From the NCBI RefSeq assembly GCF_056746865.1, contig NZ_JBWKMP010000005.1: DNA of 64,000 nt; one strand, given 5' to 3'. Positions 12,001-18,000 of the stretch are shown piece after piece. Positions within the stretch are counted from its first letter, which is position 1. Each line of letters opens with the position of its first letter. This DNA is from a plasmid. The position numbers were made by a program.

Positions 12001-15000
12001 CAGCTCTGGTGTGGCGGTCAGGTGCTTGCTGTTCCGCCAGCGTACACAAGCCAGCGTTGCGCGTGCTGTGGTCATACAGCGAAAGAAAATCGCCTGTCAC
12101 AAAGTCAATTCAGATGCCAGGTATGTGGATATACAGCGAACGCCGATGTAAACGGCGCTCGTAACATTTTAGCGGCGGGGCACGCCGTTCTTGCCTGTGG
12201 AGGGATGGTGCAGTCAGGCCGCCCGTTGAAGCAGGAACCCACCGAAATGATTCAGGCGACAGCCTGAACGTAGCAGGAATCCACGTCCTTCAGGGCGTGG
12301 AGGATGTCAAATAATTGCGATTTTGCCTGGTGTGTTGTTGCGCCCGTAGCTCGCTGACGCTCACACGCGCAGTACAGCGCCCCGCCCTGCTGCAATGCAC
12401 CAGGACGGCGTGAACTCGCTGGCGCTCGCGCTAACTGCGGCATTCTGCGGCGCAAATCAGCATGATCATAGCCTGTTGGTCTGTTCTGGCTTTGCAGGGC
12501 GAAGGGATGGCCCTGTGCATCCTGGTATGTTCGTCAGCGGCTGCGCCGCGCTTCGGGGCGATGTGGCCCCGCTGCTCCCTGGTATTTTCTTTCGCCCCTT
12601 CTATCCGCTGGCGCGGATAAAAAAATGAGCAAACCATCAAATAACTTGCTGTTTTCAGGCAACAAATCTTGATAATACATCTAAATAGATGTATTATTGT
12701 TTCATCGAAAGGGGATTGGCTCCTTTCCTTCTTAAGTCCAAACGGACAGGAGATTTAAAATGAAATTCACTTCAACCACGAATCATGTTTTCACATTCGA
12801 ACGAGTAACGCTTTGCACGATTGTTCTTATTCATAAGGATACGGGACAACAGTATGTTGTCATATTTACGGATAACAATAAAATTCGTGACTATAAGACC
12901 GGAATTGTTTCTCAGTTTGGTGAACTTAAGCAGAGTGATATTGATTTAATTCTTTTCTATCGGGACGAATATGAAAAATATTTTGACTCGTTAAATAATG
13001 GCGAGGAGTATTTGAGTTTTAAAGAATATATCGGATGTATAAGGGGAAAATAAATTATGAAAGGTGTGATCAGGTTGCTGGAACAACCTGATCACGTTAT
13101 CGACAATCAAAACTGAATGAGGTTTTTAAATGTCAACGCGGCAGATCGTACAGCTTGCTGACTCCCTTGTCAAAGGCTGGGAAACCAGAATTCCGGCAAT
13201 GACGTGCACGGAGTGGGATCAATTCCGGTGGTGGTTAAACTACCTGCAAGGGTATGAAATGTTTTAAATAACCGGGATAAATTCATATATGGGGAGAGTG
13301 TCATGCTCTCCCTTTCTTATTGTGTAAGCGAGTTGTATTACATATTTAGCTTTACGTTGTAAAGATTTTATTCGTTGTCTTTACAGTGTGGTGTGTTTTC
13401 CGGCGGTTGCGCTGCGCTTAGGGGTATGTGGCTTCGCTGCTCCCTGGTATTTTCTTTCACCCTCCTATTTGTCCGATGACTTTTGACAACAACGCTATTT
13501 GTAACTATAATTAGTTGCATGTTGGCAAGGGATGGGATTATAGCGTATGGGGAAAGCAGATAAGCTACTGGCAAAATTTTTAAACAGTAAAAAAACGTTT
13601 GAATGGGATGAACTCGTTGTTTTGTTTTCTTCTCTAGGATATGTCAAAAAGGAAATGCAGGGATCAAGAGTGCGATTTTTCAATGCTGAAATTAATCACA
13701 CAATATTAATGCATCGCCCACATCCAGAAAGTTATATTAAAGGTGGAACGCTGAAAGCTATTAAACAGAACTTGAAAGAGGCTGGGGTTTTATGAAACAT
13801 TTAAAATATAAAGGATATTTAGGTACGGTTGAGCCGGATTTTGAAAATAATATCCTGTATGGAAAGCTGGCATTTATTCGTGATCTGGTGACTTATGAGG
13901 CAGAAACATTGGCTGACCTGGAACGGGAATTTAAAACATCGGTTGATTTGTATTTACAGTCCTGTGTGGAGGACGGAAAGGAGCCTGACACGCCCTTTAA
14001 AGGTGTGTTTAACGTCAGGCTTGATCCAGAGCTGCATCGTCGGGTCGCTGAAATGGCGATGGAAGAAGATTTGTCGCTGAATGCCTTTGTCAATAAGGCA
14101 CTGGAAAAAGAAGTCAGTCATCATCGCGCAGGGGCTTAATCGCCCCTTTTTGTTGCTCGCAGGCGTTGATGTTTCTTGGTATTACGGTGTAGTGTGTTGT
14201 ATTTACAAACAATGCTTTACGGTGTATTACGATGCATACTCTTTAATTGCTTGCAATCTCTTTTCACGTTCGTTGCTTTGTTCAGCTTTTTTCAATTCAC
14301 TGAATATGTACTCTTCATCTTTACCCGTGAGTTTTGAACCGGAGAGCAAGCGATTAACAACTTTACGTCGAATTGCAGGGTAATCTTTGGTTTTATCGAG
14401 TATGGACAATATGCGGTCACTACTAAGAATCTGGCCTTTCCCTGATTCCACATAATGTAGAAAAAATGCGATTGCGGACACGCCCAAAAGCACTGTAAGG
14501 ACGGCTACACCATCAAGACGAAACTTTGATATAAAGGAATACGCGACCACTCCAATAATTGCTAAGCAGAGACATAAATAAATTAAGAGGTTTTTGTTGC
14601 GTTGTTTTTTTTGTGCGCGATCATGATCATCTATGATTGCCAGTATCTTTTCTGGAGTTGCTTGAGCCATTTTTTTTCCTTATCAGGGAGACGGAGTGTT
14701 CAATCATCTGGCTTTACAATGTAAAGCTGTGTTTGTCTTTACGGTGTAAATAATGAGATGTGCAGTTAAAAGTGTCAATCAGGTATCATATAGTAAAACA
14801 CTATATGATTTTTCTGTAATAGGCTTAAAAAATTCTCGCTTACATTGTAAAGGTCTTTGTGTCTTTACAGTGCACCACGTTGTAAATCACTGCCTTCTGT
14901 GGAGATAATCATGTTTTTTTCTGTTGGTGTCGAAACACCGAAAGATGATCAGACTGCATACGGCATCACTGTTCCGGCTTTTGATTGTTTTGGTTTTGGA

Positions 15001-18000
15001 TGTGTTTCTGCGGCTGATTCTCAGGCAGAAATACCCGCTATGGCGCGTGAAGCGATATTGGCAATCGTGGAAGATATGGTATTAAGCGGTGCTTATTCTG
15101 TTGATGATATTCATGATGAAGGGTGTTTGACTTATTCGGATCACTCCAATTATAAGCACTGTGATAGCTGGTTTTTGGTTGATGTCGATTTAACATTAGA
15201 CATGCCGTAGTCCGGCTATCGGGTCATGAGGACGCTGAAGAATATCGCAGGCATATATTTACAGTGTAAAGGTGTTTCTGTCTTTACATTGTAAGGCTTA
15301 TTGAATACTACACTGTAGTGCAATGTATGTGTTTTTATGACCTATCCCCGCGTTGTGCGGGGATTTTTTTTGATAGCTAACCGCTCGCCGCAGTCTAGCG
15401 ACCGAGCATAGCGAGCGAGTGACGAGGAAGCGGAAGATCCACCGTTGCCAGGAGAAAAGCAGGTACGCACTATGCATTCTGCCCTAGTGATGCTTTCACA
15501 AACCACGCGGCCTGAACTATTACGCCATGAATCCAGCGCAAATCGGCATCACGATTTTCTTTTTTCATTTTTTCGCCACTTAAAGCCTTGCTTACGTGAC
15601 TTTTTACCAGATTTTCGTGTAATTCTTTTGCTTCTTCAATTGTGAAACCACCAGGCAAATTTGGCGCTTCTGCTTCCAGTGATGCCAGAGCAATTTCATA
15701 AGCCCGGCGCTCAATATTGTCTCGCACGTCCAGGCTGCCGATTCGCTCCCTGATTTCTTTAATTAGTTTCTTGTCGTCGTCGGTAAATGTTGTCATCTCA
15801 CTCTCCTTTGGCGTCAATGTTTACAGCCTGGCAAGCCTCTTTGAGCACCCAGTCAATAGCGTCTTTCCATGCCCCTGTTTCGACGGGAGGATTCGTGTGC
15901 TTTACCTGATCGTAGAAGCGTACTGCGTTTACCAGTCCTCTTGTTGGTGCTGCTATCGCAGGTGGTAAGTTGTAGAGTTCCTGAATTTCATAGTTCGGCC
16001 TGTCGTTGCAGTCTTCTTTTGTCGGCACGTATTTCCAGTCACCAACCCACGTTTTACCCTGAGAGTCCGTAACGTCTTTTTTCACGTAACGATACCTCCA
16101 TGCAACAACCCCAGCTTCCAGCGATGCCAGTGCGATTTCATAAGCCCGGCGTTCAATATTGTCTCGCACGTCCAAGCTGCCGATTCGCTCTCTGATTTCT
16201 TTAATCAGTCCCTTGTCGTCGTCGGTAAAAGTTGTCATTAGTGACTCCTTTTCATATCTATGGTTTTCTTGAATCAATTTCGTCTAGTTTGAGTTTTATA
16301 TTTTGCTGGTCTGATTTTGGTAATTTTCTCATGCTCTCTTCAGTTATTTTTTTCATATCAAGAAAAGCTCTTGCATAGAAGCGCAGGCTTGCCTCTTTTT
16401 CATGTTGTGCAACATACCAGGTTGCGCCAGAAAATGCCGCAGACAGGCATAATGTGCACAAGGCACAAATTGCAATGGCTGTTCTTGTACTGAAGGGTTT
16501 TACAGCCTTAGATAATGACTTCAACTTTTCTTCATATAATTTGTTGTTTTTTTCCTGGTTGCGTTTAATTCCAGATATGAGTTCAATAATATCATCTGTT
16601 AATTTTTCTTTTACCTCAACACTTGTTTCTTTTAGATCGTTTTTTCCCTCTTCTACTTTTTCTTTTATTTCATTATCCAGATCGCCGCACGTCTCAACAA
16701 TATTCTTGAATCTTTGAATATAGTCATTTTCTACAGATGAAACGACCTGTCTGAAGCCCTCAGACAGGGCAGTGAAGTTAGCTTGTAACTCATTGCTGAA
16801 TTTTTCCTGTATCTTTTGGTTCAGAAAAATTAATGAAATAACTGGATCATCTTTTGATATTTTATGCCCTGTCTCCTTGAATACATCAACAATAAAATTA
16901 TCAATATCTTCACTGGAAACAGCCTTTTCAGGCTGTTTTAATTCTGGCTGATTAACTGTACTCATATTATTCACCGTGTTCATCGTCATAGATGCTATCT
17001 AATTGTTTGTAAATGTCATTGAAGACTCGTTTTAATCGTGATTTAGCCATTAATCCAAAATGGTCGGACTCAAGAGCTTCTTTCAGTGTTAGTGATTTTT
17101 CTGTTAGCTCTTTGATGTCAGAGGCAAAGGCATCACTTTTTCTGTCCTGAATAACCACAACGCCAGCGATTACATCCTTGTTTTTTTCAATGAATTTAGT
17201 TTCTATTAATGGGATATTTTCAAGTGCTGGAATACCCTGAAATTCATTTATCCAGACAATAAGTTTTACCTTACTTCCTTTAACCAGTTCTTTCAGTTCT
17301 TCAAATCCCTGCAAGGTATCCGCAAGAGCTTGTCCACCAACGATAACAGTATGGATATAAACGTCTTGTTCTACATCTTCAAACATGTCCATAACACAGT
17401 TATCATTGAAATACTGAATTAACGGTAAAAATGTAGATGCGCCATTGTCAATAACAAAAGTATTCTGACTATTGGTCAGCATTGATTCGAACATTGGATC
17501 GAATTTGGATTGTATTACTTTGCTGTTTTCAGTGATTTGTATCAAATCTGCATTTAATCTTTTTACTTTAACCGTAGTTGTATTAACCGGGTCTGTGTCA
17601 CCGACTACGATATTATCCATGTGATTTTCATCAATAAAGTATTGTGCCAGTATTGCGGTCGCGAATGATTTTCCAACACCACCTTTACCCTGAAGGATGA
17701 AATTGATTGAGTTTTTCATTTATAATGCTCCTTTACTTAAAGATATTTATTTATGAATTTTTCATTCGTAGCACTTGGATCGTGCTCTATTTCTTTTTTG
17801 TTCTCACTAATGTTTGAAAAAAAACCTTTTACCCCCCCTCTCGGTTCATCGCCTTTAGCTTCATTCTGATCAATTACATCTATGGTTTTTGCCTGTTCTT
17901 TTGGTTCAGTGCATTTTTGTCTTTTTTTAGCCCTCTCTGTCATATTTATATAAGTCTTTTGGGCTAGTTCTGTCTTGGTGTTGTTGTTTATGTAATCAGC

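What the first reader, a model, noticed from the sequence alone, without database searches (positions are those of the whole stretch)
13547..15210. hicAB module plus a nearby orphan HicB-N-domain-like gene
Seen in sequence: hicA and hicB overlap by 4 nt and have clear family signatures. About 800 bp downstream, a 99-aa ORF shows a HicB N-domain-like pattern without a DNA-binding domain and sits behind the second palindrome. Inference: a decoy or anti-toxin-like factor; the similarity is weak.
Basis: partly seen in the sequence, partly recalled or inferred. Interest (0 to 1): 0.4.

Follow-up and report, generated by a model that had tools for sequence, protein, structure and literature searches.

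The report
Orphan HicB antitoxin stub beside hicAB
On this colistin-resistance (mcr-1-type IncI2) plasmid, the 99-aa gene is the toxin-binding half of a second HicB antitoxin whose toxin gene and DNA-binding domain have been lost; it may protect the plasmid against the HicA toxin that rival IncI2 plasmids use to compete, but that is untested.

Summary
hicA (13547-13795) and hicB (13792-14139) overlap by 4 nt and pass Pfam thresholds. They belong to the published 'HicA^O B' subfamily. The 99-aa ORF (14911-15210) also passes the Pfam HicB_lk_antitox threshold and folds like the HicA-binding N-domain of B. pseudomallei HicB.

It is not related to the neighbouring HicB. It is about 85% identical to residues 1-95 of the 145-aa HicB of the other IncI2 module, 'HicA^T B' of pHNSHP45. 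That module is experimentally shown to drive plasmid-plasmid competition.

Alignments show three changes at the syntenic site. About 250 bp is deleted (hicA^T, its promoter and the 5' arm of its internal terminator). The RHH-coding 3' end is replaced by about 146 bp of unrelated DNA. The hicB ribosome-binding site and N-domain are intact.

pHNSHP45 shows the mirror image: hicA^O is deleted and hicB^O is cut to an RHH-less 88-aa stub. Only 3 PLSDB plasmids keep both modules. A separate clade of solo 99-aa HicB-N genes sits on ColE1-type plasmids.

The relic origin is near certain. The function is inferred, at about 0.5: trans-immunity ('anti-addiction') against rival plasmids' HicA^T, not a decoy for the adjacent HicA. 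An inert relic is the main rival.

The parts
13351..13392 (.). Palindrome pair upstream of the hicA^O B module (TTTACGTTGTAAA plus a half-site CTTTACAGTG); conserved in pHNSHP45
13483..13511 (+). Consensus sigma-70 promoter-like site TTGACA-17-TATAAT in front of hicA^O; deleted together with hicA^O in pHNSHP45
   Evidence: 12/12 match; deletion seen in alignment A3
13547..13795 (+). hicA (HicA^O subfamily toxin, 82 aa)
   Evidence: PF07927 E=1.2e-11; annotated HicA in identical plasmids; 89% nt identity to IncX4 hicAB, the subfamily tested in PMC11878559
13792..14139 (+). hicB (HicB^O antitoxin, 115 aa, N-domain plus RHH-type C-terminus); 4-nt overlap with hicA
   Evidence: PF05534 E=7.8e-20 and weak RHH hits; terminator-like hairpin 14130-14147
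14227..14670 (-). 147-aa predicted membrane protein of unknown function, a conserved neighbour, divergently oriented to the hicB^T remnant
14713..14750 (.). Palindrome pair A (TTTACAATGTAAA / TTTACGGTGTAAA, 25 bp start to start)
14750..14794 (.). Conserved core with divergent promoter-like sites: minus strand TTGACA-17-CATTAT (14778-14750) towards the 147-aa gene; plus strand TTAAAA-17-TATAGT (14766-14794) towards the orphan gene
   Evidence: nearly invariant between lineages in A2. Promoter activity not tested
14839..14875 (.).
14873..14883 (.). Deletion junction. 261 bp of the intact locus (hicA^T promoter, hicA^T ORF, 5' arm of the internal terminator) is replaced by 10 bp; the hicA^T stop codon TAA and the diverged 3' arm remain
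   Evidence: alignments A2 and A5; coordinates; the hairpin is lost, with RNA fold -4.8 versus -19.7 kcal/mol in pHNSHP45
14911..15210 (+). Orphan hicB^T remnant: 99 aa, made of residues 1-95 of the HicB^T N-terminal (HicA-binding) domain plus 4 foreign codons; GGAG ribosome-binding site retained
   Evidence: PF15919; 84-86% identity to 145-aa HicB; AF2 and Foldseek; present at full length in 140 PLSDB plasmids
15196..15341 (.). About 146 bp of unrelated DNA replacing the RHH-coding 3' end of hicB^T; carries palindrome pair C (15258-15295)
   Evidence: A2 and A5. The whole segment is found only in about 141 plasmids of this lineage; elsewhere only the palindrome pair matches
15344..15373 (+). 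Intrinsic terminator retained from the ancestral hicA^T B operon
   Evidence: homology to pHNSHP45 resumes here; described as the operon terminator in PMC11878559

Best explanation
Shown by the sequence comparisons:
- The window is an IncI2 mcr-1-type plasmid that once carried two unrelated hicAB modules side by side.
- The first module (13547-14139) is intact. It is the 'overlapping' HicA^O B type known from IncX4 plasmids.
- The second module is the 'terminator' HicA^T B type of pHNSHP45. Here it has been cut down to a 99-aa gene.
- The toxin gene, its promoter and the attenuating terminator are deleted.
- The RHH DNA-binding and dimerisation domain is replaced by foreign DNA.
- The ribosome-binding site and the whole N-terminal, HicA-binding domain are intact.

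Inferred:
- The stub is transcribed from the conserved upstream promoter region, through a palindrome-pair operator.
- Its product sequesters HicA^T toxin made by co-resident or displaced pHNSHP45-type IncI2 plasmids.
- It would therefore work as an 'anti-addiction' or immunity factor. It would cancel the toxin-based advantage those plasmids have in plasmid-plasmid competition.
- It does not serve the adjacent HicA^O, which has its own cognate HicB.
For: Origin:
- The closest proteins are 145-aa HicB antitoxins with an RHH domain, 84-86% identical over residues 1-95.
- At the syntenic site, sibling plasmids carry an intact hicA (60 aa) plus hicB (145 aa).
- DNA alignments define both breakpoints.

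Competence to bind toxin:
- All 17 family-invariant residues are kept.
- The model is confident (pLDDT 89.5) and matches the HicB N-domain in the solved HicAB complex 6g26 and the isolated N-domain 6g1c (sequence match).
- The long helix 38-59 differs from pHNSHP45 HicB only by E55D and I58L. This helix packs on HicA according to PMC10865869.
- HicB proteins without a DNA-binding domain are functional antitoxins in the commonest hicAB classes (PMC10865869).

Expression:
- The GGAG ribosome-binding site is kept.
- The internal terminator that attenuates hicB in pHNSHP45 is destroyed.

Selective rationale:
- pHNSHP45 outcompetes its own hicAB deletion mutant by more than 1500:1 in co-resident cells (PMC11878559).
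- The two lineages do meet. pEC26 and pHLJ109-34 are recombinants, one with its crossover inside hicB.

Parallels:
- pHNSHP45 has the mirror-image remnant, with hicA^O deleted and hicB^O reduced to an RHH-less 88-aa ORF.
- A solo 99-aa clade on ColE1/Rop plasmids has no hicA nearby and gives dN/dS 0.37.
- On the window's own branch, pN/pS is 0.34.
Against: - No binding, neutralisation or expression data exist for this protein.
- Its own promoter is gone, and the upstream promoter is only a 9/12 consensus match.
- The truncated allele is almost clonal. 126 of 140 copies are at least 99% identical, so an intact ORF is expected even without selection.
- The branch count is small: 7 non-synonymous against 5 synonymous changes. 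It is not significantly different from neutrality (binomial P=0.07) or from the intact branches (Fisher P=0.48).
- Toxin-first loss that leaves an antitoxin stub is also the expected neutral decay route for a toxin-antitoxin module.
- The mirror-image stub in pHNSHP45 faces a toxin (HicA^O) that gives only a 3:1 advantage (PMC11878559). That stub is therefore hard to explain by selection.
- Loss of the RHH domain removes the dimerisation surface and could lower stability or affinity.
- Thirteen of 95 residues differ from pHNSHP45 HicB, including D28G.
Confidence: 0.5

Rival explanations
1. Inert relic. After the costly, over-expressed HicA^T toxin gene was deleted, the antitoxin gene became useless. 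It has begun to decay, with RHH loss as the first hit. The N-domain ORF is still open only because the lineage is young.
For: - The truncated allele is nearly clonal.
- Singleton frameshifted copies exist, P0046 and P0049.
- Its own promoter is deleted.
- pN/pS of 0.34 is somewhat higher than on the intact branches (0.17-0.20) and is statistically compatible with relaxation.
- The reciprocal stub in pHNSHP45 faces a weak toxin (PMC11878559).
- A toxin gene must be lost before its antitoxin, so antitoxin stubs are the default by-product.
Against: - Both independent IncI2 relics, and the ColE1 clade, keep exactly the toxin-binding domain and lose exactly the DNA-binding domain.
- The deletion spares the ribosome-binding site and removes the attenuator.
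- All invariant residues and the HicA-contact helix are preserved.
- The allele is about 9% diverged in DNA from every known intact allele, with dN/dS about 0.25.
- The solo clade on ColE1 plasmids evolves under constraint, with dN/dS 0.37.
Confidence: 0.35
2. One reading: a decoy or second antitoxin acting on the adjacent HicA^O toxin. It would titrate that toxin or tune the hicA^O B module.
For: - The gene lies 772 bp from the module.
- Both proteins have a HicB-type N-domain fold.
Against: - There is no significant similarity between the orphan and the adjacent HicB (E=1.0).
- HicA^O and HicA^T share only a 24-residue local match, and published identity is <26% (PMC11878559).
- The orphan's ancestry is a different module with its own toxin.
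- Plasmids with both modules intact exist, which implies the two systems are independent.
- HicA^O already has a cognate, translationally coupled HicB.
Confidence: 0.05
3. An establishment or anti-defence factor. A stand-alone HicB N-domain, expressed near the transfer origin, would pre-empt HicA-type toxins of the recipient (chromosomal, prophage or defence-island hicAB) when the plasmid enters a new cell. Alternatively, it has some other RNase-H-fold function unrelated to HicA.
For: - The gene lies about 3 kb from the oriT region, on the TraL side. By analogy with the RP4 leader operon, this side should enter the recipient first (inference).
- Solo HicB-N genes sit on small mobilisable-type plasmids next to defence cargo.
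- HicA domains are proposed to act in anti-phage defence, and solitary hicB genes have been noted in defence islands (PMC10865869).
Against: - Antitoxin-toxin pairing is usually specific, and the orphan's nearest partner by descent is HicA^T.
- The gene points towards oriT.
- There is no evidence of early expression.
- No catalytic residues are known for the degraded RNase H fold of HicB.
Confidence: 0.1

Closest known systems
HicA^T B of IncI2 plasmid pHNSHP45 (Lin et al., Nucleic Acids Res 2025, PMC11878559); class 4 hicAB with an RHH-type HicB in Gerdes' scheme (PMC10865869)
   Same: - The orphan is 86% identical to residues 1-95 of this HicB.
- It sits at the same genomic site, between the 147-aa gene and the TraL cluster.
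- It has the same ribosome-binding-site region and the same downstream terminator.
   Different: - There is no hicA gene, no hicA promoter and no internal terminator.
- The RHH domain (residues 96-145) is absent and replaced by foreign DNA carrying a palindrome pair.
HicA^O B of IncX4 plasmids (pJIE143, p14EC007a; Bustamante & Iredell 2017/2019 as cited in PMC11594946; PMC11878559)
   Same: The window's hicAB (13547-14139) has overlapping ORFs and no intergenic terminator. It is about 89% identical in DNA to the IncX4 modules.
   Different: It sits on an IncI2 backbone, where this subfamily is the minority. The orphan gene is unrelated to it.
Class 1/2 hicAB modules with HicB lacking a DNA-binding domain (PMC10865869)
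   Same: The product is a HicB made only of the partial RNase-H-like, HicA-binding domain, of similar size (60-90 aa against 99 aa).
   Different: - Those HicBs are encoded next to, and often overlapping, their own hicA.
- This one is solitary.
- It arose by truncation of an RHH-type HicB.
Anti-addiction modules and orphan antitoxins (for example chromosomal ccd of Erwinia chrysanthemi protecting against F-plasmid ccd, Saavedra De Bast et al. 2008; cited from my own knowledge)
   Same: An antitoxin-only activity on one replicon would neutralise the toxin of a competing replicon's addiction module.
   Different: - Here the activity is only inferred.
- The protector is a domain-truncated antitoxin on an incompatible sister plasmid.
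- The competitor carries the mirror-image stub.
B. pseudomallei HicB N-terminal domain (PDB 6g1c) and HicAB complex (6g26)
   Same: Same fold (TM 0.68-0.78, 27-31% identity). The N-domain is stable on its own, and it is the part that contacts HicA (PMC11594946).
   Different: It is a distant homologue, and the isolated domain there is an engineered construct rather than a natural gene.

Membership tests
HicA toxin (Pfam PF07927), gene 13547-13795 | Profile match above the curated threshold | tested here: met
   E=1.2e-11, 45 bits against 27
HicA toxin (Pfam PF07927), gene 13547-13795 | Toxic RNase activity that is neutralised by the cognate HicB | not testable with these tools
   Shown for the IncX4 orthologue of this subfamily (PMC11878559). 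The window copy is about 89% identical in DNA
HicA^O B subfamily (PMC11878559), 13547-14139 | hicA precedes hicB, the ORFs overlap, and there is no internal terminator | tested here: met
   4-nt ATGA overlap at 13792-13795
HicA^O B subfamily (PMC11878559), 13547-14139 | HicB with a HicB-family C-terminal (RHH-type) region | tested here: met
   PF05534 E=7.8e-20; weak RHH-family hits at residues 64-107
HicB^T antitoxin (PF15919 plus RHH; HicA^T B module), ORF 14911-15210 | N-terminal partial RNase-H-like HicB domain | tested here: met
   PF15919, 39.7 bits against 27; Foldseek match to 6g26 and 6g1c; 84-86% identity to family members
HicB^T antitoxin (PF15919 plus RHH; HicA^T B module), ORF 14911-15210 | C-terminal ribbon-helix-helix DNA-binding domain | tested here: not met
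   The ORF ends 4 codons after residue 95, and the RHH-coding DNA is replaced
HicB^T antitoxin (PF15919 plus RHH; HicA^T B module), ORF 14911-15210 | Cognate hicA immediately upstream, with a G/C-rich internal terminator | tested here: not met
   About 250 bp is deleted; no hairpin remains, with -4.8 against -19.7 kcal/mol
HicB^T antitoxin (PF15919 plus RHH; HicA^T B module), ORF 14911-15210 | Binds and neutralises HicA^T | not testable with these tools
   Only indirect evidence: the helix 38-59 is nearly identical to that of pHNSHP45 HicB
Class 1/2 HicB lacking a DNA-binding domain (PMC10865869) | HicB-fold-only protein of about 60-90 aa | tested here: met
   99 aa, a single domain
Class 1/2 HicB lacking a DNA-binding domain (PMC10865869) | Encoded in an operon with its own hicA | tested here: not met
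   No hicA is adjacent; the nearest hicA belongs to another subfamily and has its own hicB
Anti-addiction / orphan-antitoxin immunity | A cognate-type toxin is present on competing replicons that meet this one | tested here: met
   About 390 PLSDB plasmids carry intact HicB^T at 95% identity or more, with hicA^T; recombinants between the lineages exist
Anti-addiction / orphan-antitoxin immunity | The orphan is expressed and protects against the competitor's toxin | not testable with these tools
   Needs RT-PCR or western blot and competition assays

The most novel reading that the evidence does not exclude
The two main lineages of mcr-1 IncI2 plasmids are locked in reciprocal toxin-antitoxin warfare. 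Each keeps one complete hicAB module as a weapon. Each also keeps a promoter-rewired, DNA-binding-domain-less stub of the other module's antitoxin as a shield. The same solo HicB-N shield has been adopted independently by small ColE1-type plasmids. If so, domain-truncated orphan antitoxins would be a recurrent, selected class of plasmid immunity genes rather than debris.
Probability: 0.3. Interest if true: 0.65.

Novelty: new variant of a known kind. Interest (0 to 1): 0.42.

Why it matters
[quoted passage not shown] Their persistence after the colistin ban has been attributed to HicA^T B-driven plasmid competition (PMC11878559).

About 140 sequenced IncI2 plasmids lack that toxin but keep the toxin-binding half of its antitoxin. 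The pHNSHP45 lineage carries the mirror-image stub of the other module.

If these stubs neutralise toxin, they would explain how the two lineages coexist. They would also matter for anti-plasmid strategies aimed at toxin-antitoxin systems. More generally, they would give a clean natural test of the 'anti-addiction' idea for plasmid-borne orphan antitoxins.

If they are inert, the locus is still a well-resolved example of how toxin-antitoxin modules decay, with the toxin lost first and the DNA-binding domain next.

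Tried and rejected
- **Paralogy with the adjacent HicB.** BLASTP gave E=1.0, so I rejected it.
- **NCBIfam.** No model hits either the 99-aa protein or HicA.
- **Origin of the 146-bp replacement DNA.** A blastn 'distant' search of PLSDB found the full segment only in this lineage. Elsewhere only the 37-bp palindrome pair matched. The origin is unresolved.
- **Search for the intact parent allele.**
  - The three plasmids with both modules intact carry the pHNSHP45 HicB allele, not the window's.
  - The closest full-length protein among 5.8 billion is only 86% identical.
- **pHLJ109-34 as an evolutionary intermediate.** This plasmid has hicA^T deleted but a full-length HicB. 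The alignment shows it is a recombinant, window-like up to about nt 80 of hicB and pHNSHP45-like afterwards. It therefore does not order the two events.
- **Selection test on the window branch.** The counts are too small to decide.
- **Rfam scan of 12.6-15.9 kb.** The only hit was a sub-threshold GcvB match (29.4 against 42 bits). It is built from the palindrome-pair hairpin plus the terminator, so I judged it chance.
- **An operator palindrome in the hicA^O promoter that I saw by eye.** The repeat finder reported none with 6-nt seeds, so I make no claim.
- **A fused-chain AlphaFold run for the HicA^T-orphan complex.** I did not run it because the tool returns no interface information.

Full report
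**What the window is.** The 5.1 kb around the finding is 100% identical to many 60-69 kb IncI2, MOBP, conjugative E. coli plasmids that carry mcr-1, for example pHLJ109-16. The gene order in these plasmids runs:
- repA
- hok
- a ProQ/FinO gene
- a parA/MipZ-like gene
- a block of small genes
- hicA-hicB
- a 147-aa membrane protein gene on the minus strand
- the 99-aa ORF
- several minus-strand genes including an RP4-type TraL homologue (NF010461, E=1e-53)
- the oriT region
- mobC/nikA and the relaxase

**The observation.**
- hicA is 13547-13795 (PF07927, E=1.2e-11).
- hicB is 13792-14139 (PF05534, E=7.8e-20).
- The two overlap by ATGA.
- A 12/12 consensus promoter lies at 13483-13511, and a terminator-like hairpin lies at 14130-14147.
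- The 99-aa ORF runs from ATG 14911, with GGAG 7 nt upstream, to 15210.
- It passes the Pfam threshold for HicB_lk_antitox (39.7 bits against 27) and has no DNA-binding domain.
- Its AlphaFold2 model has pLDDT 89.5. The best PDB matches are HicB in the B. pseudomallei HicAB complex (6g26, TM 0.78) and the isolated HicB N-domain (6g1c). A profile search of PDB sequences agrees.

**What the 99-aa gene really is.**
- It has no significant similarity to the neighbouring HicB (E=1.0).
- In a search of 5.8 billion proteins, its nearest relatives are 145-aa proteins named HicB or CopG-family. They are 84-86% identical over residues 1-95 and continue into a C-terminal ribbon-helix-helix domain.
- Those proteins are encoded at exactly the syntenic place in sibling IncI2-type plasmids: after the 147-aa gene and before the TraL cluster and oriT. 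There they are preceded by a 60-aa hicA. One such plasmid is the archetypal mcr-1 plasmid pHNSHP45.

DNA alignments (A2; A5) show what happened in the window:
- 261 bp is replaced by 10 bp at 14873-14883. The lost DNA contains the hicA-proximal promoter, hicA, and the 5' arm of the G/C hairpin between hicA and hicB.
- The strong hairpin of pHNSHP45 (-19.7 kcal/mol) is gone; the window sequence folds at -4.8 kcal/mol.
- From about 15196 to 15341, the RHH-coding sequence is replaced by about 146 bp of unrelated DNA. This adds four codons and a stop.
- Homology resumes at the operon terminator (15344-15373).

**Link to published work.** Lin et al. (PMC11878559) characterised precisely this pHNSHP45 module as 'HicA^T B':
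- It is a validated toxin-antitoxin pair.
- Its internal terminator makes toxin exceed antitoxin.
- It lets pHNSHP45 outcompete its own hicAB deletion mutant by more than 1500:1 in co-resident cells.

They also defined the 'HicA^O B' subfamily. It has overlapping ORFs, is mainly found on IncX4 plasmids, and gives only a 3:1 advantage. The window's intact hicAB belongs to that subfamily, at about 89% DNA identity to IncX4 copies. The paper's main text has no hits for the terms 'truncat', 'orphan' or 'antitoxin alone'.

**A mirror image in the sister lineage.** I aligned the window with pHNSHP45 across the first module (A3).
- pHNSHP45 lacks the consensus promoter and nearly all of hicA^O.
- Its hicB^O carries a 62-bp deletion inside the RHH region.
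- What remains is an 88-aa ORF: the N-domain plus seven frameshifted residues.

Each lineage therefore keeps one complete module plus an RHH-less, toxin-less N-domain stub of the other.

Counts in PLSDB:

| Configuration | Plasmids |
|---|---|
| Window configuration | about 140-148 |
| pHNSHP45 configuration | about 190-200 |
| Both modules complete | 3 |
| hicA^T deleted, full-length HicB^T (pHLJ109-34) | 1 |

- Other plasmids have HicA^T B and no trace of the first module.
- pHLJ109-34 is a recombinant with its crossover inside hicB.
- pEC26 carries proteins identical to the window's on the left side and to pHNSHP45's on the right, and looks like a recombinant.

The two lineages therefore do meet in the same cell.

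**Is the stub functional?**

Points in favour:
- All invariant residues of the family are retained.
- The helix 38-59 differs from pHNSHP45 HicB only by E55D and I58L. This is the element that packs on the HicA sheet in solved complexes, according to PMC10865869.
- The ribosome-binding site is kept and the attenuator is removed.
- Upstream lies a conserved core with divergent promoter-like sites, flanked by two palindrome pairs.
- HicBs without a DNA-binding domain are normal antitoxins in the most common hicAB classes (PMC10865869).
- The N-domain is the neutralising part (PMC11594946).
- An independent clade of solo 99-aa HicB-N genes ends at the same domain boundary. It sits on ColE1/Rop plasmids with no hicA nearby and shows dN/dS 0.37 at 15% DNA divergence.

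Points that are neutral or against:
- The window allele is about 9% diverged in DNA from every intact allele, with pairwise dN/dS about 0.25.
- On a three-taxon star tree its own branch has 5 synonymous and 7 non-synonymous changes (pN/pS 0.34). The intact branches give 0.20 and 0.17.
- That difference is not significant in either direction.
- The truncated allele is nearly clonal.
- Sporadic frameshifted copies exist.
- Its own promoter is lost.
- Toxin-first decay is the neutral expectation.
- The reciprocal stub in pHNSHP45 faces only a weak toxin.

**Verdict on mechanism.**
- The relic origin rests directly on the alignments, and I rate it at about 0.95.
- The most likely function, at about 0.5, is trans-acting immunity against HicA^T from rival IncI2 plasmids. 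This is an anti-addiction role.
- An inert relic is the main rival, at about 0.35.
- A broader establishment or anti-defence role is possible, at about 0.1.

**Novelty.** The hicAB pair is already known. The orphan is annotated 'HicB family antitoxin' in some records. Two things were not found by term search in the one directly relevant paper I checked:
- its derivation from HicA^T B by loss of the toxin, the terminator and the RHH domain;
- the reciprocal architecture in the two main IncI2 lineages.

I rate it a new variant of a known kind, of moderate interest because it is directly testable with published assays.

Noticed in passing
window 5734-5816, 10478-10515, 13351-13392, 14713-14750, 14839-14875, 15258-15295 (degenerate copies at 14182 and 14217): A 13-nt palindrome, TTTACANTGTAAA, occurs in pairs 25 bp apart. 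The pairs sit in front of, or between, transcription units, and only in the 5.0-15.3 kb maintenance and oriT-proximal region (18 hits against 5.5 expected). They look like operators or centromere-like sites for one plasmid regulator. A candidate binder is the 94-aa RHH protein (4698-4982, minus strand) just downstream of the parA/MipZ-like gene.
   Followed up: partly
window 2301-3509 (-), about 5845-7553, about 10559-12267: There are three copies of an IS200/IS605-family element, each with a 402-aa tnpB ORF. I read two ends, and both abut TTAC (5841-5844 and 10555-10558), the classic IS608-type target. Both lie right next to palindrome pairs, whose TTTAC cores supply such targets.
   Followed up: partly
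L020 (pHNSHP45) 4681-4947: An 88-aa remnant of hicB^O. It has a 62-bp deletion in the RHH region, and hicA^O and its promoter are deleted. This mirrors the window's hicB^T stub. It is unannotated in many records.
   Followed up: yes
window 15470-15817 (-) and 15798-16277 (-): Two adjacent genes (115 and 159 aa) share a 44/46-identical N-terminal module, MTTFTDDDK.LIKEIRERIGSLDVRDNIERRAYEIALASLEA, but have unrelated C-termini. pHNSHP45 has a single gene at this place. Their function is unknown, with no Pfam hit.
   Followed up: no
window 15241-15371 (+): A sub-threshold Rfam match to the sRNA GcvB (29.4 bits against a gathering score of 42). The alignment is made of the palindrome-pair hairpin plus the terminator and lacks most of the GU-rich core. 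It is probably chance, although a short transcript ending at this terminator is not excluded.
   Followed up: partly
L011-L019 (ColE1/Rop-type small plasmids from Citrobacter and gut metagenomes): A conserved solo 99-aa HicB-N gene with no hicA nearby. It lies between the Rop/HTH_17 backbone genes and variable defence-like cargo (AbiEii nucleotidyltransferase, or an AAA_15/AAA_21 ATPase).
   Followed up: partly
L022 (pEC26), L025 (pEF5-18-41_4), L026 (pHLJ109-34): Rare IncI2 plasmids with both hicAB modules intact, plus one with hicA^T deleted but a full-length HicB^T. The latter has its crossover within the first ~80 nt of hicB, and pEC26 also looks recombinant. The hic locus therefore appears to be a recombination junction between IncI2 lineages.
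   Followed up: yes
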